A DNA stretch of 64,000 nucleotides from Naegleria gruberi (lineage: Eukaryota), in assembly GCA_000004985.1 (NCBI GenBank), contig GG738885.1; one strand, written 5' to 3'. Under the pieces are notes generated by a model that was not told the DNA's origin, did not search any database, and worked only from the letters and a program-made list of their open reading frames with translations. The position numbers and the translations under genes are program-made. Shown one piece after another: positions 9,287 through 37,908 of this stretch (position 1 is the stretch's first letter; every line of letters begins with the position of its first letter).

Positions 9287-10201
9287 ATGTTTACACATCA
9301 AGCAGATGAGGAAGATTATTGTGTGGTGGAATTAATTGATTTCTTGAGAGGGAGAAATGAACATTCTCCACTGATCGGAATGTTGAAACAAAAACTCAGA
9401 TCACCCAAGCGAATAGCCTTCTCCAACAAATTTGAAGAATTTAAATGTATTAATTGTACATGTGATGTGTATGATGTGAGGATTTCCCGAGCCTGTTCAG
9501 TGATTGTTGCCGTTACAGGTGAATATTTTTTATTTATTGATTATGAAACTTTGGAACCTAAGGGAAGGGTAGCAACGGAATCTTTTTATTTTGAATTGGA
9601 GGAGGATTATGATCAATGTGGGAATGATGCCTTGTTGCTTTTTTATGATAAGGAAATTTCAAAGTATGATTTGAAACAATTTATTGAAGAGAAGGGTTGT
9701 AAACCACTTTGGACCTACTCGAATGAGATTGGATATGATACGAGTGAGCCGATTAATGTGATGGTTTTGGATGGGAAGAAGGCTGTGGTTTTTAATAGTC
9801 AGAATAGTATGGGATTTCTTGATGCAAAGAATGGAACACTATTGGATTACACTATTAAATTGGAGGGTGCTATATCTGGATGCTTTGAAGCTGATCGTAA
9901 GAAACCAAATACCCTCTACATATTCTTGAAGGAAATGATAAAGTTTGAATATGAGAATGGGGATTGGAAACGTACCTCATTTTCTGTTAATATAAGGAGT
10001 GTTGATGGGTTGTGCATGGATAGAGAATCTGGTGTTCTTTATTTCAGTGGATATTGTGATGGTAAATGTTACATTTCTGCATATACAACATCAGGAGATC
10101 TTATTGCAATGCATTCTGTCAACTGTGCTGGGATATGTATTGACGAGAGAACAGGATTAATGTATTTAGCAGATGGAAACAAGATTTCAATTTTGAGATA
10201 A
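9287..10201 (+). CDS. Hypothetical protein (possible NHL/beta-propeller-like), weak paralog of 305..1261
   Basis: 304-aa intact ORF. C-terminal GICIDERTGLMYLADGNKISILR is NHL-like. Transcribed divergently from the lectin/EGF gene across a shared 290-bp promoter region. Confidence 0.45.
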   Translation: MFTHQADEEDYCVVELIDFLRGRNEHSPLIGMLKQKLRSPKRIAFSNKFEEFKCINCTCDVYDVRISRACSVIVAVTGEYFLFIDYETLEPKGRVATESFYFELEEDYDQCGNDALLLFYDKEISKYDLKQFIEEKGCKPLWTYSNEIGYDTSEPINVMVLDGKKAVVFNSQNSMGFLDAKNGTLLDYTIKLEGAISGCFEADRKKPNTLYIFLKEMIKFEYENGDWKRTSFSVNIRSVDGLCMDRESGVLYFSGYCDGKCYISAYTTSGDLIAMHSVNCAGICIDERTGLMYLADGNKISILR

Positions 10202-15682: not shown

Positions 15683-18600
15683 TTAAACAATTTCAATATC
15701 ACAAATTTCAATATTTTCCTTGTGTGAAGAAAGTCTAATGGTTACCATTTGTCTCTTTTCATCTGGTCTCATATAATTAGAAAAGAAGGTACACAAAATA
15801 GTTGTGCCACCAGTTAAGCTTTGGGAATGGCTACTGAAATAATTGGTTGTTGCCTTGTATGTTCCCTTTGGAGCTTTCTTTACCATGTATTCCTCAGGTC
15901 CGTAACCTTGTCTGAAATCTCTACTCACTAATTGGGATAGAGAAAATGAAATTTAACATAATACACCTTGTGAATTACTTACCGTATCCTCCAATTCTTG
16001 TTCTATTATGAGCAAAGTATGCATGTTCCCCGTGTGGAGCTGGCTCATTAACGTGCAAATCCTAATTGAATTATTAATACAAATATCTTACAATAAAACT
16101 TACAATATCCTATAAAGGTGTGATTAACATGTCAAAGTGATTAAAAATACTTACAACCATATCTGTATCCCATGCCATTGAGATACGAATATCCAAATCA
16201 AAGTTATGAATGAATCTCTTATCAATAATTGGAAGATCTGGATTCTTGAGTAAGAGATGGTTCATCTCAGTGGCAACTGTTAATTCAATTTCATCGAAAC
16301 GAGAATCCCATTTGTCAGTGATAACTCTATTGAATAATTTCATAGATTCTTCATACTTTCCCATTCTTTCCTTGACAAGGGCCAAATCTCTGTAAGATTG
16401 AGGCTCGTGTGGTGAAATCTTTTTAATCTTTTCGAATACCCATTCAGCAAGTTCCAATTCATCTGCTTGATCCAAACGATATCCAACAATACGATACAAT
16501 TGAACATTTTCCAATTCCAATTCAGCAACATTTGACAAAACTCTAACTCCCAACTCTCTAGAATTGAGTGATGTGAGGAACATGTCAGCAACATCCAAAT
16601 AGAAAGCTGGTGAATCTCTGTAGGATTTTCTTTGTTTAAGATATTCCTTGTATGGATTACTTGATGATTTGATCAATGAGTAATAAGTAGCATCTGGACT
16701 CCATGCTTTAATTGAGATTGATCCAGAAACACTAGATGATGATTCCTCAACTACACTAGCTACACTGGAGGATTGTTGCTCACTTGATGACAAAATATTT
16801 CTTTGTCTAATATCACCAAGTAATGATGAACTTGCAGTGACGCTACTCTCTGCACAACGAGATCTACTGAGTACAGGTGAAATAGCTGATCTACTTATAC
16901 TTTGTGATTGAGGAATACTTGACATGGAAGGTCTTGAAGGAGGGGGACCAGATGATAATGGTGGAGGAACTGCTGTAGACTGTTTTCCTGAAGAAGGTGG
17001 AGGTGGCAAACAGTCAGATCTCATCGATAGAGAAGGTGGAGGTGGAGGTGGACTTGACAAACATTCATCACGACTCATAATTAGTGAGTCGGCACTATTC
17101 TCAGTGCACCACTCTTCACACTCTTCGTCACAACATAACTCCACTTCTTCATTCAATGTAATAGGGCAAGAAACAGCATCCATTCCTGGAGGAGGAGGTG
17201 GAGGTAACAACAGATCATTGCTATTGTTATTATTATTATTATTATTGTAGATATTAATGGAACCAGTTGTTGTAATTTCACTTGTAGTACTTGTAATTGT
17301 ACTTGAAGGTAATTCATTGAGTCTAATTTCATTTACAGTTTGACGAATAGGTTGAATTTCTGGCAATTTAAAGTCAGTTTTGTGCCAATCGACACGTTGC
17401 TTCCACATTGAAAGAATTCTTTCAGTCTTTTGTTGTTCTTGTTTGAGTTTTGAATCAGCTTCTTCCTTCTTGAGCTTTTTAAACTCACCCAAAACAAGTG
17501 GAAGAGACTCTGGTGGAGTAATGTCATGTTTCAAGTATTGATCTAACTTTTCCAAAACTACAAGTGAAGAAGAATCAGTTACAATTCTGAAATCAAAGCC
17601 AATTTGTTTGATTTCTTCCTTAAATAAGTGTGGGAATGCTGAGAGACATTCAATTTTCTTTTGAGCCCACAAATAAGGAACAATTGGAGCATCAGTTTGA
17701 GTCATTTCACTAATTGGAAGGACAAGTTCTTGTACATGGAAGACGTTTGATCCGTATCTGAAGGAAACAGCAAGTTTTGTACTGGAATTGGTTGATTTCT
17801 TATTGAACATACCATAGAGTTTGAAGATTTCTCCTTCGACCAAGGTAATTGGTTCATTTGGATAAACTTCTGTCAAGTCTGCATCTTCAAAATCTGCAAC
17901 TGCAAATGAAAGCACTGGTTTACCAATGGAATTAATAAGTTCGTCATCGCTCAATTCATTAGCATTCAAATAAATGCCACCACTCTTTGTGGAAATGTGT
18001 TTCAATAGAGTTGAGTTGACAATTGAAGAAAAGTTGACAAAGTAAATTGGCTTTCCGAATGAGCACATTGGTCCAATTTCATGTCCAAATGTATGGACAC
18101 CATCTGTAAAGGCAATGCAGTAATCTACACTATCATTCAATAAATTCTTATCAAAGAGTAACATGTTAGATCCACCATCATAGACAAACTCTTCAGATTC
18201 GACATATTTCAATAAATCATCAATATTGGTGAATGTTTGACTCTTAATGGTGGTACAACTGAATTGAGTCAATTCAATAGAGGTAGCACCTACACCTTCA
18301 ATGATCTTTCTAAGTTTGGCAACTTTCTTTGAGTGTGCTGCTTCTTGAGAAAGAGAGCAATCCCAAACAAGTTGAATCTTGTCTCCAATTCTTGATTGAT
18401 TCTTCAATTGTTCTGGAATTTTAGGAACTGGAACTGATGTCATGAAATAACCATTCTCAACTGCCAAGAGAATGTCATTGACACTTGTGGCTTCCTTCTT
18501 GATTGAGAAATTGAAACCTGCCATGTTTTCGCTCATTTGGTTTTTAGTAATTTGGAAATAGGCGCTTCTCTTACTGACATTCTTGCTTGTCCACAATAAT

Positions 18601-19493
18601 TGATTTTCCTTCTCAATCTTTTCTCCACCAAATTTAGATAAACTCATTGACAATTCAGTTTCATATCCTTGTAGAGAAGTTTCATTCAATGTGAATTCAA
18701 TATTGGTATCAGAACGTAACTTTTCAAAATCCAAATATGCAACTGGAATGAAAACACTTCCTTGGAGAGTTCCTGTTTCTTGATCTTTAGATTCAACTTT
18801 TTCTTTCAACATCATTTGATATTTGACTTGAACTGTCTTGTCTTGATTTGGATGCATTGGATAAACCTTTGTCTTGAAACAATTAGAAGCTTGAGTCAAC
18901 TTTTCAACAATTGAAACAGTTCCTCCAGCTCTAACTTCACTTTCGAATACAGCTTTTGCCTTTTCCTTCTCAACTGGGACAGCATCAACCAATTTACCAT
19001 TCACTTCCATTGCATAACCCATCATAGTTGCTCCATCAGGCATTGGCAACACTAATTCACCTTCAATTGTTTTACCATGTGGACTATTAAATGTCATAGT
19101 AGAAACCACTTGAACAATAGGATAAGTAACATGACATTTAACATGATGAGAAACTAATGGCAACAATGTGGATGCTTTATCGGAAAACTTCTCTCCAGTT
19201 ACTTGGACATGAATAAAACTATCGGTTGGAAGATCCTTCTTGCTGGTAGTAGTTGTGGTTGCAATTTCTTTTTTGTCATCGGTTGCATTTGTGGTTGTAT
19301 TTGTAGTTGAACTAATTGATGGTTGACTTGTTTCTTGTGGTTTGTCCAAAACTTCAGTTTTTGCTGGAGTTGTTGCCGTTGGTTGTTTGCTGGATGTTGT
19401 TTCTGTGTTGTTTGGTGTCGTTGATGATTTTTCAAGTTCACTTATTTCTTCATCGACAGCAGCTGCTGATTTCTTACTTTTAAAAAAGCCCAT
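15683..19493 (-). CDS. VIT + von Willebrand factor A domain protein (inter-alpha-trypsin-inhibitor/VWA5A/vault-PARP-like architecture) with long low-complexity T/S/P/N-rich linkers. Main exon 16110..19493 plus three small 3' exons
   Basis: VIT-like N-terminal region (...HVQVTGEKF...VVSTMTFNSPHGKTIEGELVLPMPDGATMMGYAMEVNGK...), VWA (CIAFTDGVHTFG..., GGIYLNAN). Poly-N, poly-P tracts. 3' introns: GTAAGT at about 16150 to TTAG at about 16054; GTAAGT at about 15973 to AATTAG at about 15913. These join DLHVNEPAPHGEHAYFAHNRTRIGGY and VSRDFRQGYGPEEY...DIEIV* in frame. Confidence 0.65.
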
Positions 19494-23230: not shown

Positions 23231-24841
23231 ATGGCATTGGTTATAGTGGATCCAGATGGAAAATCACCTTCCTATATAAATGATATTCGATCATCTCAAC
23301 AGCATCAACAACGGGAGCAGGTTTCCACCGATCATTTATTGATTCATCATCAACATTTATCCAACTCTGCATTAGATGCATCACCAACACAATGTGAGCT
23401 ATCATGCAACCACCCCATCTCTCGTACAATTCCAATGCATCATAATGTTACTATGGGAGCCTCAACTTTGTTAACAACACACTCAGTCGGCGCTCAAGAC
23501 AAATGCCCAGAGAAGGATATATCAAGAATGAATAGCTCCATAAATACGTATGACCTTAATCAATACTCACCTAGACCAAATATGCCCAGTGAACCCTCGC
23601 GCTCTGATGGCGAATTATCTAAAAACGAAGGCACGCAACTCTCAATCTCTGTTCATGGTCACTCTCAATTGTTTACTGTTGACAAAGTGGGGCAATATGT
23701 CCAACAAGTTTATAGCCAAGACCCTAAAAACAGTGAGGATTGCCTTCCAAAATCAGATACTCGAATCTGCACGTTCTCCAAATATCAAAGTAATTTCCAA
23801 TATTACGCAAAAAAAGAAAGTGAACATTATCGCAATCAATCAATGAACTGGGTTCATTCAAACAATCACCTCATGATGATGGATAATAATAAGGGTTCAC
23901 AATTAAACCCATTACAGAAAGATCAACCATCACACTCTTCAACACAGCAGCAGCAATTGTCCCAACATCATCACATAATTGACTCTACTCAGAAAAACAC
24001 CCTTAATTCTCCACAGCATTGCATCATGAACCAAGAGAATAAGTCCATGCCCACTACAATGCCAAATAATACTTCTAGTAGTAGTAGTAGGAGCAGTAAC
24101 ATGGTAAATCATTACATGTCTCCATCAAAGAATCACATCTTAACTCTTAATAATACTATTCCTCTCACAACTACCTCATCATGTACATCAACTAAAATCA
24201 TATCTACCTCTTCACTCTCTGAAACAAATCAACAAATCACATGTCCTACAAATCATCATGTTCTCCAGCAACACATGTACCCATCCTCTCAACATGCCTT
24301 AACAACATTGGGATCCTGCTCTGGTAGCTCATGTAACAACAGCTTGAGTGGAGGGGAAGAGAATAGTACCACAACAACCAGTGAAAAGGTTCAAAGCTCA
24401 CAAACCAAAACAAGCAATAGCAGGTCGAGAGCAACCAAAACTCCTCGTAAAAAGTACCGAAGAAGTCTATGTATTGAGGAGAGAGATTTACTTAGAGTAT
24501 TGCATTTACCACAAACTCAGGCATGTAGCTCGTTGGGGTGTAGTCTTTCAACTTTAAAGAGGAGATTTTACGAACTCAAAGATAAGATTGGTATTGATAA
24601 ATGGCCACAATTCTACAATGATATTAGACATTTAGAGGCCTTTCCACACATTTATCCAATGTCTTTGGAGTTTGTAATGAACGATGAACAAGCCAATGAA
24701 AAATATCTATCAACAGAATGTATGCATGCATTATCAAAAGCATTTGAATGTAGTACATTGGCAAAACCATCACAGAAGGGATATGCCAAATTGGTTTTTG
24801 CTGACCCTTCACATGGCATTTCTAAAAAGAAAAAGAAGTGA
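23231..24841 (+). CDS. Low-complexity S/T/Q/N/H-rich protein with a C-terminal RWP-RK-like putative DNA-binding domain
   Basis: C-terminal IEERDLLRVLHLPQTQACSSLGCSLSTLKRRFYELKDKIGIDKWP resembles the RWP-RK domain (LxxYFxLPIxxAAxxLGVxxTxLKRxCRxxGIxRWP). The assignment is tentative. Confidence 0.4.
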   Translation: MALVIVDPDGKSPSYINDIRSSQQHQQREQVSTDHLLIHHQHLSNSALDASPTQCELSCNHPISRTIPMHHNVTMGASTLLTTHSVGAQDKCPEKDISRMNSSINTYDLNQYSPRPNMPSEPSRSDGELSKNEGTQLSISVHGHSQLFTVDKVGQYVQQVYSQDPKNSEDCLPKSDTRICTFSKYQSNFQYYAKKESEHYRNQSMNWVHSNNHLMMMDNNKGSQLNPLQKDQPSHSSTQQQQLSQHHHIIDSTQKNTLNSPQHCIMNQENKSMPTTMPNNTSSSSSRSSNMVNHYMSPSKNHILTLNNTIPLTTTSSCTSTKIISTSSLSETNQQITCPTNHHVLQQHMYPSSQHALTTLGSCSGSSCNNSLSGGEENSTTTTSEKVQSSQTKTSNSRSRATKTPRKKYRRSLCIEERDLLRVLHLPQTQACSSLGCSLSTLKRRFYELKDKIGIDKWPQFYNDIRHLEAFPHIYPMSLEFVMNDEQANEKYLSTECMHALSKAFECSTLAKPSQKGYAKLVFADPSHGISKKKKK

Positions 24842-27047: not shown

Positions 27048-28739
27048 ATGATTTCGTCTGTGCCTCCTCCACAACCTTCTGCAACGGTTGCTGTTGAGGA
27101 TCTCCATCATCAGCCTAGGACCAAATTTACTAACCAGGGCAATAATGAATTGCCTCATCATCATCATCAGCATGATGGTATGGTGGATGATGAAGAGGAG
27201 AGTGTTATGATTCGTTATCATGATCGTCAGAATAATTTTGGAATTTCTGGTAAATTAATTCATGATCGAGATGATGATCAGCAGGGTGTTGGTGGTTCCG
27301 ATCATATGAAGAACAATATCGAATTTCAAAATGTTGAATTATCTTCAAATAATAATGGAAAAGTAATAATGGAGAGGAAGGAGAAGGAAATATTGAGTGA
27401 TCATGGAAATAGAATTGATAGTCAACAACAGGAAGTGGTAAATAATTCATCATTGGAACCAAAAGACAAATATCACATGATTACAATAATATTCTTCATT
27501 CAGGGAATGGGTGAATTATTTCCATGGAATGCAATGTTATCAGCTGTGGATTACTTGTTGGCTCTTTATTCTGAACAAAAAGTCATGTTGTGGATGACAT
27601 CTGTATATAGTTTGATTACTTTAGTGACATTGTTGCTATTGATTAAGTTTGGAACTCATATTAGGTACAGATATAGGATTTATATACCTTATGTAATATT
27701 GATTGGATTATTGATTGCTGTTCCATTACTTTATGTGATTATTGGAAATAGATTGGCTGAATTTATTATTCTAATGGCGATTGTCTCAGTAATGGCTGTT
27801 TGCACAGGATCTATTCAGTCTTCAGTTTATGGAATTTCCAGCAAGTTACCTCATCACTATATGAATACGGTAGTGTCTGGAAGTGCTTTTGCTGGTCTAT
27901 TTATTAGCTTATTGAGGATTTTAACAAAGGTTACCATAGAGAGTGGGTATGAGGAAGTTCCTATTGAGATATTATCAACCTCAACAATTATTTACTTTTC
28001 GTTTTGTGCAGCTCTCAACGTGGTTTGCATTGCTACCTTTATCATTTTGGAAAGGTCACCATTTGTTCAATATTATTTGAATCAGAAAGTGGAAGATCAA
28101 GCTGATGCTAATAGAGATCATGCTGAAATTACATCAATTAAGAACATTTTGACAAATATTTTCAAGAATGTTTGGATTAATTGCTTGACTATATTCTTGA
28201 ACTTTTTCGTATCATTAACAATTTTCCCAGGCCTTTCAAGTGCCATTCCATCCATTTATGTTGGAACCTCTATGGAAACATGGTTGCCAATTTGGTCAAA
28301 TTTGACATTTCAAATCTATGATTTTCTTGGAAGAATTGCATATTATTGGATTGATATATTACCATCTGGAAAATTCATCCCGATTGAGTCACTTCCACCA
28401 ACAACTTCCAAATACGAATTATTTAAAAGAAAATTGAGAGTTTCTACTCAAGAGATAATACTTCTCGTTTTGGTTTTGATGAGATTTATCTTGATACCTT
28501 TATTTATATTTTGCTTGAATCCAATGCTTTTTAAACATGATGCAATTCCATTGATATTCATGTTTGTCATGTCATTGTCAAATGGTTATTTCAACAGCAT
28601 ACTCATGTCGAGTGCTCCTAAGAAATTTGTAAATTTACATGAGAAGGAAATCACAGCAACAACAATGACATTCTTTTTATTGTTGGGAATTTCTGTGGGC
28701 TCAAATTTTGGTCTAATTTTAGGATTAATACTGCTTTAA
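27048..28739 (+). CDS. Equilibrative nucleoside transporter (ENT/SLC29 family) with an N-terminal His/Asp-rich extension
   Basis: ENT signature ...FFIQGMGELFPWNAMLSA... (GxGxLxPWN). About 11 predicted TM helices. 563 aa. Confidence 0.7.
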   Translation: MISSVPPPQPSATVAVEDLHHQPRTKFTNQGNNELPHHHHQHDGMVDDEEESVMIRYHDRQNNFGISGKLIHDRDDDQQGVGGSDHMKNNIEFQNVELSSNNNGKVIMERKEKEILSDHGNRIDSQQQEVVNNSSLEPKDKYHMITIIFFIQGMGELFPWNAMLSAVDYLLALYSEQKVMLWMTSVYSLITLVTLLLLIKFGTHIRYRYRIYIPYVILIGLLIAVPLLYVIIGNRLAEFIILMAIVSVMAVCTGSIQSSVYGISSKLPHHYMNTVVSGSAFAGLFISLLRILTKVTIESGYEEVPIEILSTSTIIYFSFCAALNVVCIATFIILERSPFVQYYLNQKVEDQADANRDHAEITSIKNILTNIFKNVWINCLTIFLNFFVSLTIFPGLSSAIPSIYVGTSMETWLPIWSNLTFQIYDFLGRIAYYWIDILPSGKFIPIESLPPTTSKYELFKRKLRVSTQEIILLVLVLMRFILIPLFIFCLNPMLFKHDAIPLIFMFVMSLSNGYFNSILMSSAPKKFVNLHEKEITATTMTFFLLLGISVGSNFGLILGLILL

Positions 28740-28964: not shown

Positions 28965-31900
28965 TTATTTGTGATTACAAAAATCTTGTGGTTTGGGTCT
29001 TTTACTTGGATCCCGTCTAACCATTTCTGTAATTTGTGTTATCAACTCGGCAGAATATTTGTTGCCAGAACCAGTATTCATTTGATTTTTCAAAATCTCT
29101 TCCACTTGTTCTTCATTCTTTGTCAGGAAATAGTGACTAATGGAGGTGCTTACATCTTTTGAAATAAGTTGATAAAGAGTCACTCCCAATGAATAAATAT
29201 CAGTCTCTGGTCCATAATTCGATCCAAGACCTAATTCAGGAGAGCAATACAATGGCGTTCCAGCGTATGATTTGTTTGAAGTGCTATTGTCTCTGGCCAA
29301 GCCAAAATCTGCCAAAACAATTTGAATGTTAGTATTGGAAATCTCCTTAATAAAAATATTGGACGGCTTAATATCTCTGTGAATTAGTTTCTTTTCATTG
29401 TGAATAAAATCGAGGGCCCTGCCCATTTGTTCAATGATTTGTCTCAAAATTTCCTCCGTACAAAACTCAGGGTTTTTAAGTAAATAGCTCAAATCTCCCT
29501 TCTCATAGTAATCCATTTCAATGAATAGAAGTTCTTCCTGATCAATAAAAAGATCATTCACCTTGACAATATTTGGATGATTCATATTCAATAATTGGAG
29601 ACCTTCCTTCATAAATAAACTCAATTCAGAGTATGAGTTAAATCTCATAGCTTTAAGAACTCTAGGATTATTGTTTTGATCTAAACATTTAAATACTGAT
29701 CCAAATCCTCCAGCTCCAATCTTTTGCAGATTAGAATATCTTGAAAGCGGATTAAAAGCATCTGTTATACTTGAGCTTGATCCGGATTTAACAGATCTAA
29801 CATTAGTTGAAGTTTTAAAGAAATACGAAACCTCGTCAGGATAATCTGAGAAAGTTCCAGTTGTGGTCGAAATATCCAATGTGGAAAGGTTTGAATTTTT
29901 CAATTCTACATCTGAAACTGTAGCAATGGAACTATTAGATTGTTTCTTCTTTTTCTTACATAGCACCACCACAGCAATGACAATTATTATAGCAATTAGT
30001 ACCAAAATCAATAGAATTGAGAGAATGGGCACGAGGGTTGCTATTAAAATGATTCTTGTTGTTGATTCCTCCACAGATGTATTTGAATTGATTTCACACT
30101 GAGTTCCATTCCAATTCTTTTGACAGGAGCAAGTATTTGGAGAAATACATTGTCCTTGATTGGCTCCTCCACAAGCTCCATCTTCAGTTTTTCCAAAACA
30201 AATTGGAATGCAAATTGTTGCATCAATTGAAGATACAGAAAAATTATCTGAGCAGTATGGACTCATTAAGGTAACTCGTTTTCTCAACTCAATCATGGCA
30301 AAAACACCAGTTTTCGAATTGAATGAAAGAGAGATTGGAGTTCCAATGCTAGTATTTGTTGGATACATTGTTGGGGAAGATAAAATATTTGATCCATTAC
30401 CTGCTATAGTAAAGAGTGTTCCATTGGTTGATATTTTCCTAACTCGACTCAATTCTATAAAAAAGACCTCTCCTATTGTATTGACAAAGATGGATTTGGG
30501 ACTTGTCAGCAATGTAGATGATGCAGCATTGACATTTTCTCCAGAATATCCATTACTTCCTTTCAGTCCAGCAATGGTTGAAATAGTTCCCTCTTTTGAG
30601 AATTTTCTAATTCGGTAGATATCTGAAAAGTAGAGTTCTGATTTTTGTTCATGGAAGAATAACCCAGCTGGTTTGTAAATCCCAACAAGAGATCGATCAA
30701 TTCCATCTGAAGTATCATCAGTTCCATTTCCTGAATAAACCTGAAAGTTATTTTCGAAACCGACATAAAGATAAGTTGTTGTGCTTTGAACAGCATCCAT
30801 AAAGTAAATCTTTCCACTTGAATCCACATGAATGAAATCTTTGACGATTGTGAATGAACTGAATAGTGTTTTCACATTTCCATCTTTCGAATATTTCAAC
30901 AATCGTGAATTGTCAATTACATAGAGATTATCATTATGTGAAAAAACAGCTGTCGGTGTCTGCATCTTGAATGAAGAGATGGATCCTTCAGCCATATTAA
31001 TTCCTCCAAGGAAAGGACCTGCATAGGTGTTGAATGTTTTTTGAGCTACATTTCCTTTGATAATTCTATTGTAAGTAATGTCAGTAACATAAAAATCACC
31101 TGTGGAAGCCAATGAAACTCCCACAATTATCTTCTTTCCTTTTGGATCGTTAACGATTCTGTCAGGAAGTCTCCTTGTTCCAAATCCTGCTATTGTTGTG
31201 AAAATAGTCGAATTGGTCGAGTATTTACGAATGACACTATTCAAAGTATCTCCTATTATATAATCTCCATTATTATCCAAACAAAATGAGTGTGGATATC
31301 TCATTCTCGCAAGTGTTCCTGATTGATAATCTCCTAAAAACCCCTTAGTTAATGTTCCAATAAGCTTTTGTTGTTTTATGCTTATATCTAGCACATAGTG
31401 TCCAAATGCATTGACATAATACTTTTCATTGGCATTGGTATAAACAATTGAGGTTGGGGTATGGATAGTGCTAAGAGTTTGAGAGTTTCCGTATACTGAT
31501 TGTGTTGAAATGTCAAAATCTCTAATTAAATAGTTTTTCGTATCAGCCACAGCCAATATTGTCCCTTTCAGAAGAGCAAATCTTGGAAATTTCAACATGA
31601 TATCAGATAAAACTAAAGTGCTAGGTGGTTCTTTGCCTCCGAATTGAGTTCCTAAAATGGTGGAACTGGTTGAATTGAAGACTTTTCGAATTCTATGATT
31701 GAAAGTATCTGAAACAATTAAAATATCTCCAGAAAAACTCAAACCTTGTGGATTATTCAATTGTAAATTCAGTAAATCACTTCCTTCACCATTATATCCA
31801 GGAATTCCACTTCCCATGAATCTATAAATTCGTCCACTTGTTGAATCAACTCTCAAAATCCGATGATTATGTGTATCTGAAATGAATAAATCTTGTGTGG

Positions 31901-33272
31901 AGGGTTGAATTGCAATTTCGTATGGGTAATTGAGTGAAACATCGGTGGCCAGTAATCCATCAATATTATTGTCGAAACCTGCAACTCCTTTTCCTGCCAC
32001 TTGTTTTAGTACTCCATTTTCAATCTTTACAATTCTGTGATTATAGGCATCAGAGAAGAATACTTCATTCTTTGAATTGGTGGCCACTCCATAGGTATAT
32101 TTAAGTTTGGCAATTGTTGGCTCTACGTTATCTATTGGAGAGGTTGATTCTTCAACATTCGAATAACCTGCAACCAAAGTAACTATTCCATTAGAATATT
32201 TCAATAACCTGTGGTGATTCGTATCAGAAATAAATAATTCGTTTTGATTATTCAACAAAATTTGAGTTGGATTATTGAGTTGAGCAGAAGTTCCTGATAT
32301 ACCATATCCTGTATTGAATCCTCCTCCAACAATTGTTTCAATCAATCCAGTAGTAGCAGATACTTTCCTTATCCTATGATTTCCTTTATCCACAATATAG
32401 AGATCTCCACTATCCGAAACTGTAATACCTGTTGGAAAATTTAGTTTTGATTCAGTTGCATTTATCGAGTCTTGATTGTATCCACATTGCCCTCCTACAC
32501 CAGCAACTGTTCCAATAATTCCCAAATTCGAAACCTTTCTAATCACACAATTAAACGTGTCAGCAATATAAATTTCACCTGAATTGCTCACATAAACACT
32601 GGAAGGATATCTCAATGAAGCAGAAGTTGCTTCTCCACCATCTCCACTATATCCCGCTACAACATTTCCTGCAACATTCGAAACAGTTCCATTTGCAATC
32701 ACCAACTTTCGAATCAATGAGTTGGATTCGTCTGCAAAATATAATTCTCCCTGGCTAGAGAATATTTCAGTGTAGAATAAACCAATAGGACGATTCAATG
32801 CTGTTAGAGTTCCTTTCAGATTATTTCCATTGTACAAACCAGTTATACTGGTCCCTACTACCTTGTTCGAAACTCCATTTTGAAATTTGTGAATTGCATT
32901 TAAATATTCATCAGAATAATAGATAATATTGTTGGGGGTTACGGCAATACCTGCCCATTGAACACCAATATCCGAATAAACAACTTCATAAAAATTAGTG
33001 TTCATCGAAACCTTTCCGATAGTTTTTACATCATGAATAAAGTACATGAAACTTGAATCATTTGATAGAGCCATTTGAAGTGGGTATTCCAGAAGGATAT
33101 CCACTGCCTTTGTTGTGGTAGATTCCTCTTCCACCAGAACTGAAATCTCATAACTTGCAGATTTCGTCTCCACACTTGTATTATTCGAAACTAACTGACC
33201 CACACATAAACCAACCATAAAACACCACAACAATACCGCCAACAACATAACAACCCTCGACTTGAAATTCAT
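28965..33272 (-). CDS. Receptor-like protein kinase: signal peptide, about 14 NHL repeats, EGF-like Cys-rich module, single TM, C-terminal Ser/Thr-type protein kinase domain (1435 aa, single exon)
   Basis: Signal peptide MNFKSRVVMLLAVLLWCFMVGLCVGQ. Repeated NHL signatures (...YIADTFNCVIRKV, YIVDKGNHRIRKV, FISDTNHHRLLKY, FFSDAYNHRIVKI, FISDTHNHRILRV, IVSDTFNHRIRKV). EGF-like CIPICFGKTEDGACGGANQGQCISPNTCSCQKNWNGTQC. TM IILIATLVPILSILLILVLIAIIIVIAVVVL. Kinase motifs IGAGGFGSVFKC, HRDIKPSNIFI, DFGLA, SPE. Confidence 0.8.
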   Translation of the reverse strand: MNFKSRVVMLLAVLLWCFMVGLCVGQLVSNNTSVETKSASYEISVLVEEESTTTKAVDILLEYPLQMALSNDSSFMYFIHDVKTIGKVSMNTNFYEVVYSDIGVQWAGIAVTPNNIIYYSDEYLNAIHKFQNGVSNKVVGTSITGLYNGNNLKGTLTALNRPIGLFYTEIFSSQGELYFADESNSLIRKLVIANGTVSNVAGNVVAGYSGDGGEATSASLRYPSSVYVSNSGEIYIADTFNCVIRKVSNLGIIGTVAGVGGQCGYNQDSINATESKLNFPTGITVSDSGDLYIVDKGNHRIRKVSATTGLIETIVGGGFNTGYGISGTSAQLNNPTQILLNNQNELFISDTNHHRLLKYSNGIVTLVAGYSNVEESTSPIDNVEPTIAKLKYTYGVATNSKNEVFFSDAYNHRIVKIENGVLKQVAGKGVAGFDNNIDGLLATDVSLNYPYEIAIQPSTQDLFISDTHNHRILRVDSTSGRIYRFMGSGIPGYNGEGSDLLNLQLNNPQGLSFSGDILIVSDTFNHRIRKVFNSTSSTILGTQFGGKEPPSTLVLSDIMLKFPRFALLKGTILAVADTKNYLIRDFDISTQSVYGNSQTLSTIHTPTSIVYTNANEKYYVNAFGHYVLDISIKQQKLIGTLTKGFLGDYQSGTLARMRYPHSFCLDNNGDYIIGDTLNSVIRKYSTNSTIFTTIAGFGTRRLPDRIVNDPKGKKIIVGVSLASTGDFYVTDITYNRIIKGNVAQKTFNTYAGPFLGGINMAEGSISSFKMQTPTAVFSHNDNLYVIDNSRLLKYSKDGNVKTLFSSFTIVKDFIHVDSSGKIYFMDAVQSTTTYLYVGFENNFQVYSGNGTDDTSDGIDRSLVGIYKPAGLFFHEQKSELYFSDIYRIRKFSKEGTISTIAGLKGSNGYSGENVNAASSTLLTSPKSIFVNTIGEVFFIELSRVRKISTNGTLFTIAGNGSNILSSPTMYPTNTSIGTPISLSFNSKTGVFAMIELRKRVTLMSPYCSDNFSVSSIDATICIPICFGKTEDGACGGANQGQCISPNTCSCQKNWNGTQCEINSNTSVEESTTRIILIATLVPILSILLILVLIAIIIVIAVVVLCKKKKKQSNSSIATVSDVELKNSNLSTLDISTTTGTFSDYPDEVSYFFKTSTNVRSVKSGSSSSITDAFNPLSRYSNLQKIGAGGFGSVFKCLDQNNNPRVLKAMRFNSYSELSLFMKEGLQLLNMNHPNIVKVNDLFIDQEELLFIEMDYYEKGDLSYLLKNPEFCTEEILRQIIEQMGRALDFIHNEKKLIHRDIKPSNIFIKEISNTNIQIVLADFGLARDNSTSNKSYAGTPLYCSPELGLGSNYGPETDIYSLGVTLYQLISKDVSTSISHYFLTKNEEQVEEILKNQMNTGSGNKYSAELITQITEMVRRDPSKRPKPQDFCNHK

Positions 33273-33600: not shown

Positions 33601-34224
33601 TTATTTGGAACTTTCAATTATTAACATTTCTACAAATTTTTCATAATTAATCTTTCCACTCGAGTAGGGATCGAGAATGGTTAACAATTTGGTGTATTCC
33701 TCGTGTGAAATAATTGATTTCGAATAGGCGAAATGGGTGGAATGTTCTGAGTTTTCTGAAGGTTTGGTGAGTGGACTGAATTCGAATAAATATCTTTCTA
33801 AATCTTGAATGTAGATGAACCCTCTCTGAACTGGTTTGCCATTAGATGGTTTTTCCGAAAGTATTCTAAAGGATTCCAATAATTGTTCTCTTCCAAAATC
33901 TAGTTCTGGTTCATCATGAATCAAGTGGAGAAACTGTTTGAAATTTATAGAATCTACTGGCCCATCCATCCTTCCCAAACCAAGAGAAGAGAAACTTTCG
34001 TGAATGTTTCGAATAATTGCTTTCAATTCCTCATTCGAAATCTTGTATCCTATTCTTCTAAATAAACTTTTTAAATCCTTCATGGTCATCCTCTGTTGAT
34101 TTATTGGTTTCACTGGTTTCTTCTCATTGTCCGTGTTTCGAACAAGTAAATGAAACAAGGCAATCGAGTCATTCATTTCACTTTCAGATAATGTCATTGC
34201 ATCAATTATTCTTGTTGGAGCCAT
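33601..34224 (-). CDS. EF-hand-like (calmodulin-fold) protein, 207 aa
   Basis: Paired helix-loop-helix segments (MTMKDLKSLFRRIGYKISNEELKAIIRNI; ILDPYSSGKINYEKFVEMLII) resemble degenerate EF hands. Confidence 0.4.
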   Translation of the reverse strand: MAPTRIIDAMTLSESEMNDSIALFHLLVRNTDNEKKPVKPINQQRMTMKDLKSLFRRIGYKISNEELKAIIRNIHESFSSLGLGRMDGPVDSINFKQFLHLIHDEPELDFGREQLLESFRILSEKPSNGKPVQRGFIYIQDLERYLFEFSPLTKPSENSEHSTHFAYSKSIISHEEYTKLLTILDPYSSGKINYEKFVEMLIIESSK

Positions 34225-36081: not shown

Positions 36082-37908
36082 ATGAGAGCAAATTCTAGAT
36101 TCGTGTTTGCCTTGTTGCTTGTTTTGTTTCTTGTTCCTTTTATTTTGGAATCAATAGACCAAACAGCATCGAGCCTTTTAACAAAATCAAATAGTAATAT
36201 TAATCGTTATGAATCAACCTCGATTTCTTCATCATCAATTTTTGTAGAGGCCCAAAGAAGAAGACGAAGACTCAACAAGATTTTAAAGAAGAAGAAGAGA
36301 TATGAAGAAGAAGAAGACGATGATGATGACGAAGATGACGACAATCAACAACAACAACAACAACCACCTCAACAAGTCGACCAAGATGATGAAAGTTCTG
36401 GCGACAATGATAGTAGTAATGATAAAGTTGTAATGGAAAAACACACTTTCAGACCACCTTTCCTCTTTGGTGGACAACAATCTGTTCCTCATTGGGAATA
36501 TGGTGGAAGTTCTATTGCTACTGAATCTTACATTAGAGTTGTTCCAAACATCAAGTCTAGAACTGGTTATTTGTGGAATCTTGAACCTGTTCACATGAAG
36601 AGTTGGCAAGTTGAATTTGATATTCACATTCACAATAATCATAATCCTGGTGCGGATGGTATGGCTTTCTGGTATGCCAAAGAGCCATTCAAGACTGGTA
36701 CTTTAATGGGTTATACTGATAGTTTTGAAGGATTGGGTATTTTGTTTGATACCTATGACAATAACATGGATGGTGATAATCCAGCTGTTATTGCTATTTC
36801 CGGAAATGGTCAACATGTTAACTATGATGTAGATCATGATTTCAAGGCTAATCAATTGGACCGTTGTCGTGCTGATATTAGAAATCCAAGTGCTGGAAAG
36901 ACTTCAGTTCGTGTTACTTATCAAAATTCCATGTTAGGAGTTTATTTGGATACAGCAAACTCTGGTAGCTTTGTTAAATGTTTTGAACTTAACAATATTC
37001 ATTTGAAGGAAGGATTCTACTTTGGTCTTACTGCTGCTACTGGTGGTTTGGCTGATAATCATGATGCTTTGAACTTTATTACTTATGATCTTAATCCTGC
37101 CCCAGTTTCAAATGAAGGAATTCAACCACCATCTCATCATCACAGAGGTTGGTACGATCCATATGAGGAATTCCAAAAGTATCTCGATAAGCAAAAGCAA
37201 GACGAAGAAGCCATGAATCATGGTAAGCCAGCCGAACATCATCAACAACAACAACAAGTCAACTTGCAACACGAAGTTCATAGTGAAATTGAAAGAAAGA
37301 AGAAGGAAACTGAACAAGCTTGGGAGGAAGAACAAAAGATCTTTAATCAACTCAAGGAAAAGATGAAACATGTAGATGAAAGCCAAGATGCAAGCTCAAA
37401 GGATCAACCACCAGTTCAACATCATGAAGGTGGTCATGTTACCTTTAATATGCAAACTGGTTTACTTATTTTGGAAGCTCTCGAGGAAGTTACCAGAACT
37501 ATTAAGAAGTCATCTACTAAGAGCGATATTATTAATATTTTGGAATTTGTTAATGAAGTTTCAAAGAAGCAAGAAGAAGTACAAGCCAAATTTACTGAAT
37601 TCAGTGAAAATACCAAGAGAGATGTTAGTGGAACCCTTCAAGAATTGAAGAGAGATACTGATACATTGAATGTTCAATTACGTAAATTGGATTCTCTCAT
37701 TACAAACATCTATAATGATGTCAACAATATTCAACGTTCTCATGGTGAAATCCACTCTGGTATTTCCAAGCAAACAGAATCATTAGGAGAAATGCAAAGA
37801 TTTGGCAATGGATGGCTGTTGGTCATTTTCATCTTATTCCAAGTTGTTTTTACTGTTGGTTTCATCTATTATAGAAAGTTCCAAGAAAGTAAGAGCAAGT
37901 TCTACTAA
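36082..37908 (+). CDS. ERGIC-53/LMAN-like L-type (legume-like) lectin cargo receptor: signal peptide, L-type lectin domain, coiled-coil stalk, TM, short cytosolic tail
   Basis: The lectin domain HWEYGGSSIATESYIRVVPNIKSRTGYLWNLEP...GADGMAFWYAKEPFKTGTLMGYTDSFEGLGILFDTYDNN matches ERGIC-53/VIP36 (DGLAIW...GLGV(F/I)(V/F)DTY). TM GWLLVIFILFQVVFTVGFIYY followed by RKFQESKSKFY* (di-aromatic ER-exit-like C-terminus). An unusual acidic/poly-Q insert follows the signal peptide. Confidence 0.75.
   Translation: MRANSRFVFALLLVLFLVPFILESIDQTASSLLTKSNSNINRYESTSISSSSIFVEAQRRRRRLNKILKKKKRYEEEEDDDDDEDDDNQQQQQQPPQQVDQDDESSGDNDSSNDKVVMEKHTFRPPFLFGGQQSVPHWEYGGSSIATESYIRVVPNIKSRTGYLWNLEPVHMKSWQVEFDIHIHNNHNPGADGMAFWYAKEPFKTGTLMGYTDSFEGLGILFDTYDNNMDGDNPAVIAISGNGQHVNYDVDHDFKANQLDRCRADIRNPSAGKTSVRVTYQNSMLGVYLDTANSGSFVKCFELNNIHLKEGFYFGLTAATGGLADNHDALNFITYDLNPAPVSNEGIQPPSHHHRGWYDPYEEFQKYLDKQKQDEEAMNHGKPAEHHQQQQQVNLQHEVHSEIERKKKETEQAWEEEQKIFNQLKEKMKHVDESQDASSKDQPPVQHHEGGHVTFNMQTGLLILEALEEVTRTIKKSSTKSDIINILEFVNEVSKKQEEVQAKFTEFSENTKRDVSGTLQELKRDTDTLNVQLRKLDSLITNIYNDVNNIQRSHGEIHSGISKQTESLGEMQRFGNGWLLVIFILFQVVFTVGFIYYRKFQESKSKFY

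What the first reader, a model, noticed from the sequence alone, without database searches (positions are those of the whole stretch)
28965..33272. Large receptor-like kinase combining about 14 NHL repeats, an EGF-like module, one TM and a cytoplasmic protein kinase
NHL beta-propellers in the ectodomain of a transmembrane Ser/Thr-type kinase is an uncommon architecture, and protist lineages rarely have bona fide receptor kinases. The kinase has all catalytic motifs (GxGxxG, HRD, DFG). The NHL repeats are well conserved (H/N-R-I-R-K-V). Two smaller NHL-like/beta-propeller-like paralogous genes (305..1261 and 9287..10201) and a secreted lectin/EGF protein lie in the same 35 kb. This may point to a family of extracellular sensing proteins.
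Basis: partly seen in the sequence, partly recalled or inferred. Interest (0 to 1): 0.55.

Follow-up and report, generated by a model that had tools for sequence, protein, structure and literature searches.

The report
NHL-propeller receptor kinase of Naegleria
One uninterrupted Naegleria gruberi gene encodes a cell-surface-type receptor with about 18 NHL beta-propeller blades and an EGF-like module outside and an apparently active Ser/Thr kinase inside; it belongs to an undescribed receptor-kinase family that I found only in Naegleria and Willaertia, and it is not part of a local gene cluster.

Summary
Window 28965..33272 (-) is one 1435-aa ORF, identical to an NCBI "predicted protein" of Naegleria gruberi. 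Its order is signal peptide, NHL array, six-Cys EGF-like module, one TM helix, Ser/Thr-rich juxtamembrane segment, C-terminal kinase.

The NHL array has 14 statistically recognisable units and 18 in register. AlphaFold2 models show four-stranded blades that match six-bladed NHL propellers. All catalytic kinase motifs are present.

The fusion is real. The same collinear layout recurs in at least 10 N. gruberi paralogs, in N. fowleri and N. lovaniensis proteins, and in one uninterrupted ORF of an unrelated assembly.

The kinase belongs to a discrete subfamily found only in Naegleriidae. It is marginally NEK-like and not TKL/RLK. The subfamily is also fused to RCC1-like and GPS-containing ectodomains.

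The ectodomain's nearest relatives are bacterial NHL arrays. M. tuberculosis PknD is a bacterial precedent for an NHL-sensor kinase, but with the opposite domain order.

Three side claims fail. The two small ORFs are not NHL paralogs. The lectin is an ERGIC-53-type cargo receptor. Receptor kinases are not rare in protists.

Function is inferred: ligand or contact sensing through the propellers, then kinase trans-activation. I rate it a moderately interesting new variant of a known kind.

The parts
28965..33272 (-). Complete intron-less CDS, 1435 aa plus TAA stop, of the receptor kinase
   Evidence: Single ORF. 100% identical and full-length to an NCBI N. gruberi predicted protein. Coordinates re-translated and checked.
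33198..33272 (-). Signal-peptide-like N-terminus, aa 1-25 (MNFKSRVVMLLAVLLWCFMVGLCVG|QL)
   Evidence: Basic n-region, hydrophobic core (KD peak 2.7), small residues at -3/-1. Based on hydropathy only; no dedicated signal-peptide predictor was available.
32958..33197 (-). N-terminal ectodomain segment, aa 26-105, containing the weakest candidate blade (unit 1, aa ~52-92)
   Evidence: Self-profile E 0.04-0.05. AF2 pLDDT about 30, so not modelled. Status as a blade is uncertain.
31209..32957 (-). NHL units 2-12, aa 106-688; ten of them are strongly conserved and carry the D-x-x-N-H/x-R-I-R-K-V motif
   Evidence: Pfam NHL and TEN_NHL. Self-profile E 1e-15 to 1e-27 for the strong units. AF2 pLDDT 80-95 with regular four-stranded blades. 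Foldseek matches six-bladed NHL propellers.
30297..31124 (-). NHL units 13-18, aa 717-992; the degenerate, membrane-proximal blades
   Evidence: Self-profile E 8e-5 to 0.27. BLASTP of aa 585-1070 against bacterial NHL arrays gives E down to 9e-27 over about 400 aa. The focused AF2 model shows eight blades at aa ~606-1003. Foldseek hits on NHL propellers include Pizza6 at TMt about 0.62.
30096..30254 (-). Cys-rich stalk, aa 1007-1059, with one EGF-like module (six Cys, aa 1025-1059)
   Evidence: Cys positions. Sub-threshold Pfam EGF_2, DUF7949 and EGF_DL_JAG hits. The Cys pattern is conserved in an alignment with paralogs, and several of those pass the EGF_2 or EGF_Teneurin cut-offs.
29958..30056 (-). 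Single transmembrane helix, aa 1073-1105
   Evidence: The only internal hydrophobic segment (KD peak 3.95), followed by KKKKK, which fits the positive-inside rule. A TM helix sits at the equivalent position in all family members.
29739..29957 (-). Cytoplasmic juxtamembrane segment, aa 1106-1178; Ser/Thr-rich, ending in the family-conserved (N/D)P-x-SRY motif
   Evidence: P173, S175, R176 and Y177 are invariant columns in alignment A1. Sequence shown.
28968..29738 (-). Protein kinase domain, aa 1179-1435, running to the C-terminus with all catalytic residues
   Evidence: Pfam Pkinase E 1.6e-50, profile positions 1-261 of 263. Motif positions. Best solved relatives are NEK1, MST3/STK24, ULK3, NEK2/7 and MARK.

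Best explanation
The gene encodes a type-I single-pass receptor Ser/Thr kinase of Naegleria gruberi.

Shown: after a signal peptide, the extracellular part consists of 17-18 NHL blades followed by one EGF-like module. One TM helix follows. The cytoplasmic part is a Ser/Thr-rich juxtamembrane segment and a complete, RD-type, catalytically competent-looking kinase.

Inferred from length and fold matches: the blades most likely form three six-bladed beta-propellers.

Inferred mechanism: the NHL propellers act as a binding surface for an extracellular ligand or contact partner. For a bacterivorous amoeba the obvious candidates are bacterial or prey surface molecules, substrate, or other cells. Binding clusters or dimerises receptors. 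The kinase domains then trans-phosphorylate their activation loops (the Ser/Thr-containing segment between DFG and SPE) and possibly the Ser/Thr-rich juxtamembrane segment. They then phosphorylate cytoplasmic targets that control feeding, motility or differentiation.

Evolution: the gene is one member of a multigene receptor-kinase family found here only in Naegleriidae. A single kinase lineage has been combined with different ectodomains: NHL arrays, RCC1-like propellers and GPS/EGF modules. The same kind of NHL array is also wired to other outputs, namely a 7TM-RGS protein and an anchor-only protein.
For: Architecture.

Fold: AF2 models have pLDDT 80-95 over most blades. There are 16 blades in the full ectodomain model and 8 of 8 in the focused model of the membrane-proximal half, mapping one-to-one onto the sequence units. 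Foldseek top hits are six-bladed NHL domains: bacterial teneurin-like protein 9ifo, SOQ1, NHLRC2, Pizza6 and teneurins. PDB sequence hits agree: 9ifo E 6.5e-56 and the PknD sensor E 2e-6.

Kinase competence: every catalytic residue is invariant across four family members. HRDIKPSN is the Ser/Thr-type catalytic loop. Pkinase at 172 bits outscores PK_Tyr_Ser-Thr at 100 bits.

Reality of the fusion and family: an exhaustive profile search finds long proteins matching the whole EGF-TM-JM-kinase profile at their C-termini. My NHL/TM scan and Pfam confirm NHL-(EGF)-TM-kinase in N. gruberi P0242, P0246, P0249, P0250, P0259, P0286, P0296 and P0395, in N. fowleri P0241/P0389, and in N. lovaniensis P0244, P0245 and P0312. 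Family kinase domains score 170-550 bits against 125 or less for most other kinases in the list, with two intermediates at 136 and 150. The family is monophyletic in 94 of 100 NJ bootstraps against the available outgroups.

Module reuse: P0077 is SP-NHL-GPS-7TM-RGS and P0046 is NHL plus a hydrophobic tail. RCC1-like and GPS ectodomains occur on the same kinase lineage.
Against: There is no experimental evidence of any kind: no expression, localisation, kinase activity or ligand data. No paper on these proteins was found.

The signal peptide and TM helix rest on hydropathy only.

The 3x6 propeller partition is inferred from 18 units of about 56 aa and from roughly 300-350-column matches to six-bladed propellers. 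Model coordinates could not be inspected. Unit 1 (aa 52-92) is not significant and was not modelled, and unit 10 was not modelled confidently.

The overall AF2 confidence is moderate (mean pLDDT 65-67).

The ligand class is a guess. NHL-type propellers also include enzymes, although only a sub-threshold Vgb_lyase hit is seen here (E 0.035).

The destination could be an internal membrane such as the phagosome rather than the cell surface.
Confidence: 0.72

Rival explanations
1. Adhesion receptor rather than ligand sensor. The three propellers plus EGF stalk mainly mediate cell-substrate or cell-cell/prey adhesion, as teneurin-type ectodomains do, and the kinase only reports or regulates attachment.
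For: The ectodomain is built from the same module types as teneurin ectodomains, NHL plus EGF (Pfam TEN_NHL; Foldseek teneurin hits). An anchor-only NHL paralog, P0046, exists that cannot signal by itself.
Against: Sequence cannot separate this from the sensing model, and the two overlap. The kinase is fully conserved across paralogs and species, so signalling output is under selection.
Confidence: 0.15
2. Endomembrane (phagosome, lysosome or ER lumen) sensor. The NHL domain faces the lumen of an internal compartment and the kinase reports lumenal content, in the manner of IRE1.
For: A type-I topology is equally compatible with a lumenal orientation. In protist TM-kinase surveys IRE1-like proteins are a recurrent class (PMC10463195).
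Against: There is no KEN/RNase domain; the protein ends with the kinase. No retention motif was seen. EGF-like modules and heavy sequon content (14) are typical of surface proteins. Related NHL arrays sit on a GPS-7TM protein of adhesion-GPCR type.
Confidence: 0.07
3. The NHL region is an extracellular enzyme, of the NHL/SGL-type propeller hydrolase or lyase kind, tethered to a kinase rather than a binding domain.
For: Weak Pfam hits to propeller enzyme families: Vgb_lyase E 0.035 in this protein, and SGL, Arylesterase and Vgb_lyase below cut-off in paralogs. Foldseek also lists streptogramin B lyase.
Against: All such hits are below the curated cut-offs and overlap the generic NHL blades. The repeats are highly self-similar arrays like bacterial surface NHL arrays, not a single specialised catalytic propeller. 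The best matches are non-enzymatic NHL domains.
Confidence: 0.04
4. Annotation or assembly artefact: two adjacent genes (a secreted NHL protein and a kinase) read through as one ORF, or an inactive pseudokinase remnant.
For: Three kinase-only N. gruberi models of 281-290 aa exist (P0122, P0123, P0247), about 50% identical to this kinase. The kinase might therefore exist on its own, or those models might be truncated. Their loci could not be retrieved.
Against: The frame is continuous, with the TM helix and a conserved juxtamembrane motif between the parts. The identical collinear order occurs in 13 or more independent gene models from three Naegleria species and in one ORF of contig L001. All catalytic residues are intact.
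Confidence: 0.02

Closest known systems
Mycobacterium tuberculosis PknD (receptor Ser/Thr kinase with an NHL beta-propeller sensor; PDB 1RWI/1RWL)
   Same: A single-pass membrane Ser/Thr kinase whose extracellular sensor is a six-bladed NHL propeller (PMC1847690). The PknD sensor is a detectable sequence relative of this ectodomain (E 2e-6). The Pizza6 proteins score 59-71 bits and are structural matches at TMt about 0.6; from my own knowledge they were designed from the PknD sensor. The ligand is unknown in both cases.
   Different: The domain order and topology are opposite: in PknD the kinase is N-terminal and cytoplasmic and the sensor is C-terminal. PknD has one propeller, against about three here. 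PknD has no EGF module. The kinase here is closest to eukaryotic NEK/STE20/ULK/MARK kinases, and no bacterial kinase appears among the top 60 PDB hits. This is an analogous architecture, not orthology.
Naegleriidae paralogs and homologs of this gene (e.g. N. gruberi XP_002672252 / P0246, XP_002678153 / P0242; N. fowleri XP_044565022; N. lovaniensis XP_044550582)
   Same: The same SP-NHL array-(EGF)-TM-juxtamembrane-kinase order. Kinase identity is 47-56%, with the conserved (N/D)PxSRY and KDxxTSIS motifs. Ectodomain identity is 24-34% over long stretches.
   Different: Blade numbers, EGF numbers and total lengths differ (831-2807 aa). No member is characterised; all are 'predicted' or 'hypothetical' proteins. 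No clear 1:1 ortholog above 60% identity was seen in the other species.
Entamoeba histolytica transmembrane kinases (TMK family, e.g. PATMK)
   Same: A lineage-specific expansion of type-I single-pass receptor Ser/Thr kinases in a phagocytic amoeba. PATMK is implicated in phagocytosis (cited in PMC4053784; clade II of PMC10463195). This is a plausible functional analogue.
   Different: From my own knowledge, Entamoeba TMK ectodomains are Cys-rich (CXXC/CXC) repeats, not NHL propellers. Their kinase clade is reported as Evosea-specific. Relationship to the Naegleria kinases was not tested here.
Plant RLK/Pelle and animal TGF-beta-type receptor Ser/Thr kinases (TKL group)
   Same: The general logic: ectodomain, one TM helix, cytoplasmic Ser/Thr kinase. 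The Ser/Thr-rich juxtamembrane segment is reminiscent of regulatory juxtamembrane regions.
   Different: The kinase is not TKL-like. Pkinase (172 bits) far outscores PK_Tyr_Ser-Thr (100 bits), and no TKL, RLK or RTK chain appears in the top 60 PDB matches. The ectodomain type also differs. This is convergent.
Teneurins and bacterial teneurin-like proteins (TLPs)
   Same: The best solved relative of the ectodomain is the NHL domain of Bacillus inaquosorum TLP (9ifo, E 6.5e-56; NHL region 929-1255 per PMC13018210). Pfam TEN_NHL matches. NHL is combined with EGF modules in one ectodomain.
   Different: There is no FN-plug, YD/RHS shell or toxin domain. The topology is type I rather than type II. 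The propellers are multiple and tandem. The output is a kinase.
NEK family kinases
   Same: The best single PDB match is NEK1 (E 1.5e-26, 97 bits), with NEK2 and NEK7 close behind. The activation segment ...GTPLYCSPE resembles the NEK GTPYYxSPE.
   Different: The margin over STE20 (MST3, 90 bits), ULK3 (89) and MARK (86) is small. The family forms its own clade, apart from a NEK-labelled outgroup, in the rough tree. NEKs are cytoplasmic and are not receptors.

Membership tests
NHL-repeat six-bladed beta-propeller (Pfam PF01436 / PF25021) | Repeated units matching the NHL profile above the curated cut-off | tested here: met
   NHL 123.7 bits (cut-off 20); TEN_NHL 112.7 bits (cut-off 27.1). 14 units at E<0.01 with the self-profile, against about 0.05 per shuffled sequence.
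NHL-repeat six-bladed beta-propeller (Pfam PF01436 / PF25021) | Four-stranded antiparallel blades closing into six-bladed propellers | tested here: inconclusive
   The AF2 models show four-stranded blades for 16 of the 18 units (units 1 and 10 were not modelled confidently). Foldseek aligns about 300-350 columns to six-bladed NHL domains at TMt 0.56-0.67. Ring closure and the 3x6 partition could not be inspected because no coordinates were available, and mean pLDDT is only 65-67.
Eukaryotic protein kinase, catalytically active (ePK) | Gly-rich loop, VAIK Lys, alphaC Glu, HRD, catalytic Asn, DFG, APE, and subdomain IX Asp / XI Arg all present | tested here: met
   GAGGFG 1186-1191, K1207, E1223, HRD 1298-1300, N1305, DFG 1322-1324, SPE 1344-1346, D1358, R1425. 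All are invariant in the four-sequence family alignment. Pkinase profile positions 1-261 of 263 are matched.
Eukaryotic protein kinase, catalytically active (ePK) | Demonstrated phosphotransfer activity | not testable with these tools
   This needs a recombinant cytoplasmic domain and a kinase assay.
Type-I single-pass receptor kinase | N-terminal signal peptide, one TM helix, ectodomain N-terminal and kinase C-terminal to it | tested here: met
   Two hydrophobic segments only, aa 1-25 and 1073-1105. KKKKK lies after the TM. 14 sequons and the EGF Cys residues lie before it. This is hydropathy-based; no SignalP or TMHMM was available.
Type-I single-pass receptor kinase | Surface localisation and ligand-dependent activation | not testable with these tools
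   No experimental data were found in the searchable literature.
PknD-type bacterial receptor Ser/Thr kinase | Extracellular NHL beta-propeller sensor linked by one TM helix to a Ser/Thr kinase | tested here: met
   (1rwi E 2e-6). PknD is described in PMC1847690.
PknD-type bacterial receptor Ser/Thr kinase | N-terminal cytoplasmic Hanks-type kinase with a C-terminal sensor; kinase of bacterial lineage | tested here: not met
   The order is reversed here: the sensor is N-terminal and the kinase C-terminal. The top 60 PDB kinase matches are all eukaryotic or eukaryote-derived chains.
TKL-group receptor kinases (plant RLK/Pelle, animal STKR) and receptor tyrosine kinases | Kinase domain of TKL/TK type (PF07714-type profile preferred; HRDLAARN/HRDLRAAN loop for TKs) | tested here: not met
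   PF00069 at 172.4 bits against PF07714 at 100.1 bits. The catalytic loop is HRDIKPSN. No TKL or TK chain is in the top 60 PDB hits. No full kinome phylogeny was done.
Teneurin / teneurin-like protein | FN-plug + NHL + YD/RHS shell 'superfold' (PMC13018210) | tested here: not met
   Only NHL, with sub-threshold EGF, is detected in Pfam. No YD, RHS or FN-plug hit is present.
NEK kinase family | Kinase domain clusters specifically with NEKs | tested here: inconclusive
   NEK1 is the best PDB hit, but only 6-10 bits ahead of MST3, ULK3 and MARK. In the rough NJ tree the family is separate from one NEK-labelled sequence.
Naegleriidae TM-kinase family (defined here) | Kinase domain scoring 170 bits or more with profile A1, a conserved (N/D)PxSRY juxtamembrane motif, and a TM helix about 70-100 aa upstream | tested here: met
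   This protein scores 786 bits. Family members score 170-550 and most others 125 or less, with two intermediates at 136 and 150. The motif is invariant in A1. Monophyly is recovered in 94 of 100 NJ bootstraps. All named members are Naegleria or Willaertia.

The most novel reading that the evidence does not exclude
Naegleriidae independently invented a receptor-kinase system. They captured bacterial-type NHL arrays, possibly by lateral gene transfer, since the nearest relatives of the ectodomain are overwhelmingly bacterial. They used the array as a common extracellular recognition module wired to at least three outputs: a lineage-specific NEK-like kinase, a GPS-7TM-RGS protein, and anchor-only proteins. 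On this reading the family is a pattern-recognition repertoire for bacterial prey or contact surfaces. Its N. fowleri members would be candidate host-contact sensors.
Probability: 0.15. Interest if true: 0.65.

Novelty: new variant of a known kind. Interest (0 to 1): 0.4.

Why it matters
Receptor kinases have arisen repeatedly in eukaryotes: in animals, plants, oomycetes and Entamoeba. This locus documents another independent origin, in Discoba/Heterolobosea. It pairs a multi-propeller NHL ectodomain otherwise typical of bacterial surface proteins with a kinase lineage seen only in this clade.

The work provides a defined gene family: at least 10 members in N. gruberi, with counterparts in the pathogen N. 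fowleri. These can now be examined for roles in prey or host recognition, feeding, or the amoeba-to-flagellate switch.

It also offers a case study of domain shuffling, with the same kinase on NHL, RCC1-like or GPS ectodomains and the same NHL array on kinase or 7TM-RGS outputs. It does not overturn any principle, and its function is still untested.

Tried and rejected
1. The word-indexed homolog search with the EGF-TM-kinase part found only three close relatives, which suggested an orphan. The exhaustive profile search showed that this was a sensitivity artefact and that a sizeable family exists.

2. I tried to fetch the loci of the kinase-only N. gruberi models P0122 and P0123 to see whether NHL exons lie upstream. 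They are not on record, so it remains open whether they are truncated models or true soluble kinases.

3. The Naegleria genome paper (doi 10.1016/j.cell.2010.01.032) is not held. Literature searches for Naegleria with NHL, kinome, receptor kinase or transmembrane kinase returned nothing on these proteins.

4. The 'small NHL paralogs' were tested by Pfam, BLASTP, a six-frame scan with the blade profile and hhalign. Only one marginal blade was found, at nt 1148-1255. The paralog claim is rejected.

5. The local 'extracellular sensing cluster' idea is rejected. The neighbours are a nucleoside transporter, an EF-hand protein, Nop56/58, a DUF4116 protein, a VIT protein, an RWP-RK protein and an ERGIC-53-like lectin. 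Only the EGF-repeat protein at 5967..8993 looks extracellular.

6. The first AF2 model left the membrane-proximal half patchy. A focused second model resolved it.

7. The propeller partition could not be read because model coordinates are not exposed.

8. Membership of PknD-like, TKL/RLK, teneurin and IRE1-like families was considered and rejected (see membership tests).

9. The frame breaks in the L001 homolog cannot be called introns, because the contig has only 1.4x coverage.

10. The third homolog search was not used.

Full report
IDENTITY AND OBSERVATION. The window has low G+C (31-41% across 2-kb windows, mostly 32-37%) and comes from Naegleria gruberi. The 1435-aa translation of 28965..33272 (-) is 100% identical, end to end, to an NCBI/UniRef/EukProt 'predicted protein [Naegleria gruberi]'. 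N. gruberi belongs to Discoba; Heterolobosea; Naegleriidae. The ORF is a single uninterrupted frame from ATG to TAA, so the deposited gene model and the ORF coincide.

Pfam supports the two major claims far above curated thresholds. Pkinase matches aa 1179-1435 at E 1.6e-50. NHL scores E 9.6e-37 and TEN_NHL E 2.4e-32.

ANATOMY. Hydropathy shows exactly two hydrophobic segments. The first is an N-terminal signal-peptide-like segment (aa 1-25...GLCVG|QL). The second is one long TM helix (aa 1073-1105), immediately followed by KKKKK. Fourteen N-x-S/T sequons and the clustered cysteines lie on the N-terminal side. Together with the positive-inside rule, this gives a type-I orientation with the NHL part outside and the kinase inside.

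A profile built from the protein's own strong repeats detects 18 units of about 56 aa in strict register between aa 50 and 992. Ten have E between 1e-17 and 1e-27, four lie between 8e-5 and 2.5e-3, and four lie between 0.016 and 0.27. A second iteration returns the same 18 positions, and 200 shuffled ectodomains give only 9 hits at E<0.01 in total.

The degenerate membrane-proximal half is nevertheless genuine NHL. Residues 585-1070 align with bacterial NHL arrays at E down to 9e-27 over about 400 residues.

AlphaFold2 on the whole ectodomain gave mean pLDDT 65, with 80-95 over aa ~105-525, and regular four-stranded blades. A focused model of aa 585-1070 (pTM 0.64) resolved eight blades that map one-to-one onto sequence units 11-18. 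Foldseek places both models on six-bladed NHL propellers: the bacterial teneurin-like protein 9ifo, SOQ1, NHLRC2, the Pizza6 designer propellers at TMt about 0.6, and teneurins.

Six units of about 56 aa span about 336 aa, which equals the aligned length on six-bladed targets. The NHL region spans about 940 aa. From this I infer three tandem six-bladed propellers. I could not inspect coordinates, so this partition remains an inference. Unit 1 (aa 52-92) is neither significant nor modelled.

Between the last blade and the TM helix lies a Cys-rich stalk. Its last six cysteines (aa 1025-1059) follow an EGF pattern. Pfam EGF models are sub-threshold in this protein. The module aligns cysteine for cysteine with paralogs and homologs whose EGF_2 or EGF_Teneurin hits pass threshold, so 'EGF-like' is justified by homology.

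KINASE. All catalytic residues are present and are invariant across four family members:
- GAGGFG 1186-1191, K1207, E1223
- HRDIKPSN 1298-1305, DFG 1322-1324, SPE 1344-1346
- D1358, R1425

It is an RD kinase with Ser/Thr residues in the activation segment. The cytoplasmic juxtamembrane segment (aa 1106-1178) is Ser/Thr-rich and ends in a family-conserved (N/D)P-x-SRY motif.

The closest solved kinases are NEK1 (97 bits), MST3/STK24 (90), ULK3 (89), NEK2/7 and MARK. The margin is small, so I call the kinase marginally NEK-like and not a NEK. It is not TKL/RLK-like. PF00069 outscores PF07714 by 172 to 100 bits, and no TKL, RLK or RTK chain appears among the top 60 PDB matches.

IS THE FUSION REAL? 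Yes. The continuous frame is one line of evidence. An ENA contig from another organism (L001) also carries a homolog. There, a signal peptide and NHL-bearing ORFs are followed by one uninterrupted 659-aa ORF containing the last NHL units, two EGF modules, the TM helix and the kinase, about 35% identical to aa 854-1431. The frame breaks upstream in L001 may be introns or errors, since coverage is 1.4x.

More importantly, an exhaustive profile search of 1.84 billion representatives with the EGF-TM-JM-kinase alignment found many long proteins matching the whole profile at their C-termini. My NHL/TM scan, Pfam and source look-ups show NHL-(EGF)-TM-kinase in the following:
- N. gruberi: XP_002678153, XP_002672252, XP_002673894, XP_002675547, XP_002676275, XP_002674574, XP_002676784, XP_002674840, and probably XP_002672884
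- N. fowleri: XP_044565022
- N. lovaniensis: XP_044550582, XP_044542747, XP_044549156, XP_044543693

All are 'predicted' or 'hypothetical' proteins.

THE FAMILY. Kinase domains of this family score 170-550 bits with the family profile, against 125 or less for most other kinases in the list, with two intermediates at 136 and 150. The family is monophyletic in 94 of 100 NJ bootstraps against the few outgroups available (this is a rough tree, not a kinome phylogeny). Every named member is from Naegleria or Willaertia magna, both Naegleriidae.

This gene groups with two N. gruberi paralogs, P0246 and P0242. Their kinases are 56% identical to it and their ectodomains 30-33% identical. That points to species-level expansion and fast ectodomain divergence.

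The same kinase lineage also carries other ectodomains:
- RCC1-like propeller plus EGF: P0260, and W. magna P0358
- GPS-containing ectodomains: N. lovaniensis P0271, N. fowleri P0396
- ectodomains with no recognised domain

Conversely, the same kind of NHL array occurs in N. gruberi on a GPS-7TM-RGS protein (P0077) and on an anchor-only protein (P0046). This is modular shuffling of an extracellular recognition module and of a receptor kinase chassis.

ORIGIN OF THE ECTODOMAIN. In the first homolog search, all 120 listed hits other than N. gruberi proteins were bacterial or metagenomic NHL arrays, up to 40% identical over one propeller's length. Among solved structures, the NHL domain of Bacillus inaquosorum teneurin-like protein scores 193 bits. 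Eukaryotic NHL domains score lower: 76 for SOQ1, 66 for NHLRC2 and about 50 for teneurins. This is compatible with a bacterial origin. It is not proof, because bacterial sequences dominate the database and long arrays accumulate score.

MECHANISM (INFERRED). By analogy with single-pass receptor kinases in general, the propellers provide ligand- or contact-binding faces and the EGF module acts as a stalk. Ligand-induced clustering would bring the RD kinase domains together for activation-loop trans-phosphorylation. The Ser/Thr-rich juxtamembrane segment would offer regulatory or docking sites.

For a bacterivorous amoeba, prey or surface recognition is the most natural input. Entamoeba TMKs implicated in phagocytosis are the nearest functional analogy. 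None of this is shown experimentally.

COMPARISON WITH KNOWN SYSTEMS. The closest architectural precedent is M. tuberculosis PknD, a receptor Ser/Thr kinase with a beta-propeller sensor (PMC1847690). Its sensor is a detectable sequence relative here. However, PknD has the opposite domain order, a single propeller and a bacterial kinase, so this is analogy and not membership.

Plant RLKs and animal receptor Ser/Thr kinases share the logic but not the kinase group. Teneurins share the NHL and EGF modules but not the topology, the YD shell or the output.

That survey does not mention Naegleria, NHL or propellers.

NEIGHBOURHOOD CLAIMS. ORFs 305..1261 and 9287..10201 have no Pfam hit and no signal peptide. 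They show only marginal similarity to each other and to the receptor. A six-frame scan of the window with the blade profile finds, outside the gene, one marginal unit at nt 1148-1255 (E 0.007; hhalign probability 52%).

The 'lectin' (36082..37908) is Lectin_leg-like, the ERGIC-53/VIP36 type. The EGF protein (5967..8993, -) is a signal-peptide-bearing array of teneurin-type EGF repeats with a hydrophobic C-terminal tail. It is plausibly extracellular but unrelated to NHL. There is no local cluster of sensing genes, and the real family is dispersed over many scaffolds.

VERDICT. The rarity premise and the local-paralog idea are wrong. The sequence is already in public databases with automatic domain annotation, but I found no description of this family. 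I rate it a new variant of a known kind: a convergent receptor Ser/Thr kinase with a bacterial-type multi-propeller NHL ectodomain, so far seen only in Naegleriidae. Interest is moderate (0.4).

Noticed in passing
Not in the window: N. gruberi protein P0077 (2103 aa), returned: Signal peptide, long NHL array, GPS motif (aa 1542-1581), seven hydrophobic segments (aa ~1609-1917) and a C-terminal RGS domain (aa 1952-2081). This is an adhesion-GPCR-like 7TM-RGS protein using the same NHL ectodomain type as the receptor kinase.
   Followed up: partly
Not in the window: proteins P0260, P0358 (Willaertia magna), P0271 (N. lovaniensis), P0396 (N. fowleri): The same Naegleriidae kinase lineage is fused to RCC1-like propeller plus EGF ectodomains and to GPS-containing ectodomains. 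RCC1 repeats on the extracellular side of a TM kinase are unusual.
   Followed up: partly
window 5967..8993 (-): A 1008-aa protein with a signal peptide, many teneurin-type EGF repeats (EGF_Teneurin, EGF_2, EGF_TEN) and a hydrophobic C-terminal tail that may be a GPI or TM anchor. It is likely a surface protein.
   Followed up: partly
window 305..1261 (+) and 9287..10201 (+): Two ORFs of about 310 aa with no Pfam family. They are weakly similar to each other (23% over 134 aa, E 1e-4) and lack signal peptides. The first ends in a single marginal NHL-like blade (nt 1148-1255). Their family and fold are unknown.
   Followed up: partly
window 36082..37908 (+): A 608-aa protein with a Lectin_leg-like domain (E 1e-57), i.e. 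an ERGIC-53/VIP36-type cargo-receptor homolog and not an extracellular lectin.
   Followed up: no
window 10642..12741 (+), 16110..19493 (-), 23231..24841 (+), 27048..28739 (+), 33601..34224 (-), 3601..5340 (+): Other neighbours, none related to the receptor: a DUF4116 repeat protein (9 stretches), a VIT-domain protein of 1127 aa, an RWP-RK domain protein, an equilibrative nucleoside transporter, an EF-hand protein and a Nop56/58-type snoRNP protein.
   Followed up: no
L001 6536..11818 (+) (ENA ERZ2098899, NODE_78): A homolog of the receptor kinase in an unidentified eukaryote with 37% G+C. The NHL part is split over several frames and ORFs, while NHL-EGF-TM-kinase sits in one ORF. Contig coverage is only 1.4x, so the breaks may be sequencing errors rather than introns. 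The organism was not identified.
   Followed up: partly
Not in the window: N. gruberi P0122, P0123, P0247 (281-290 aa): Kinase-only gene models of the same subfamily that start just upstream of the conserved (N/D)PxSRY motif. They may be truncated annotations of further receptor genes. Their loci could not be retrieved.
   Followed up: partly
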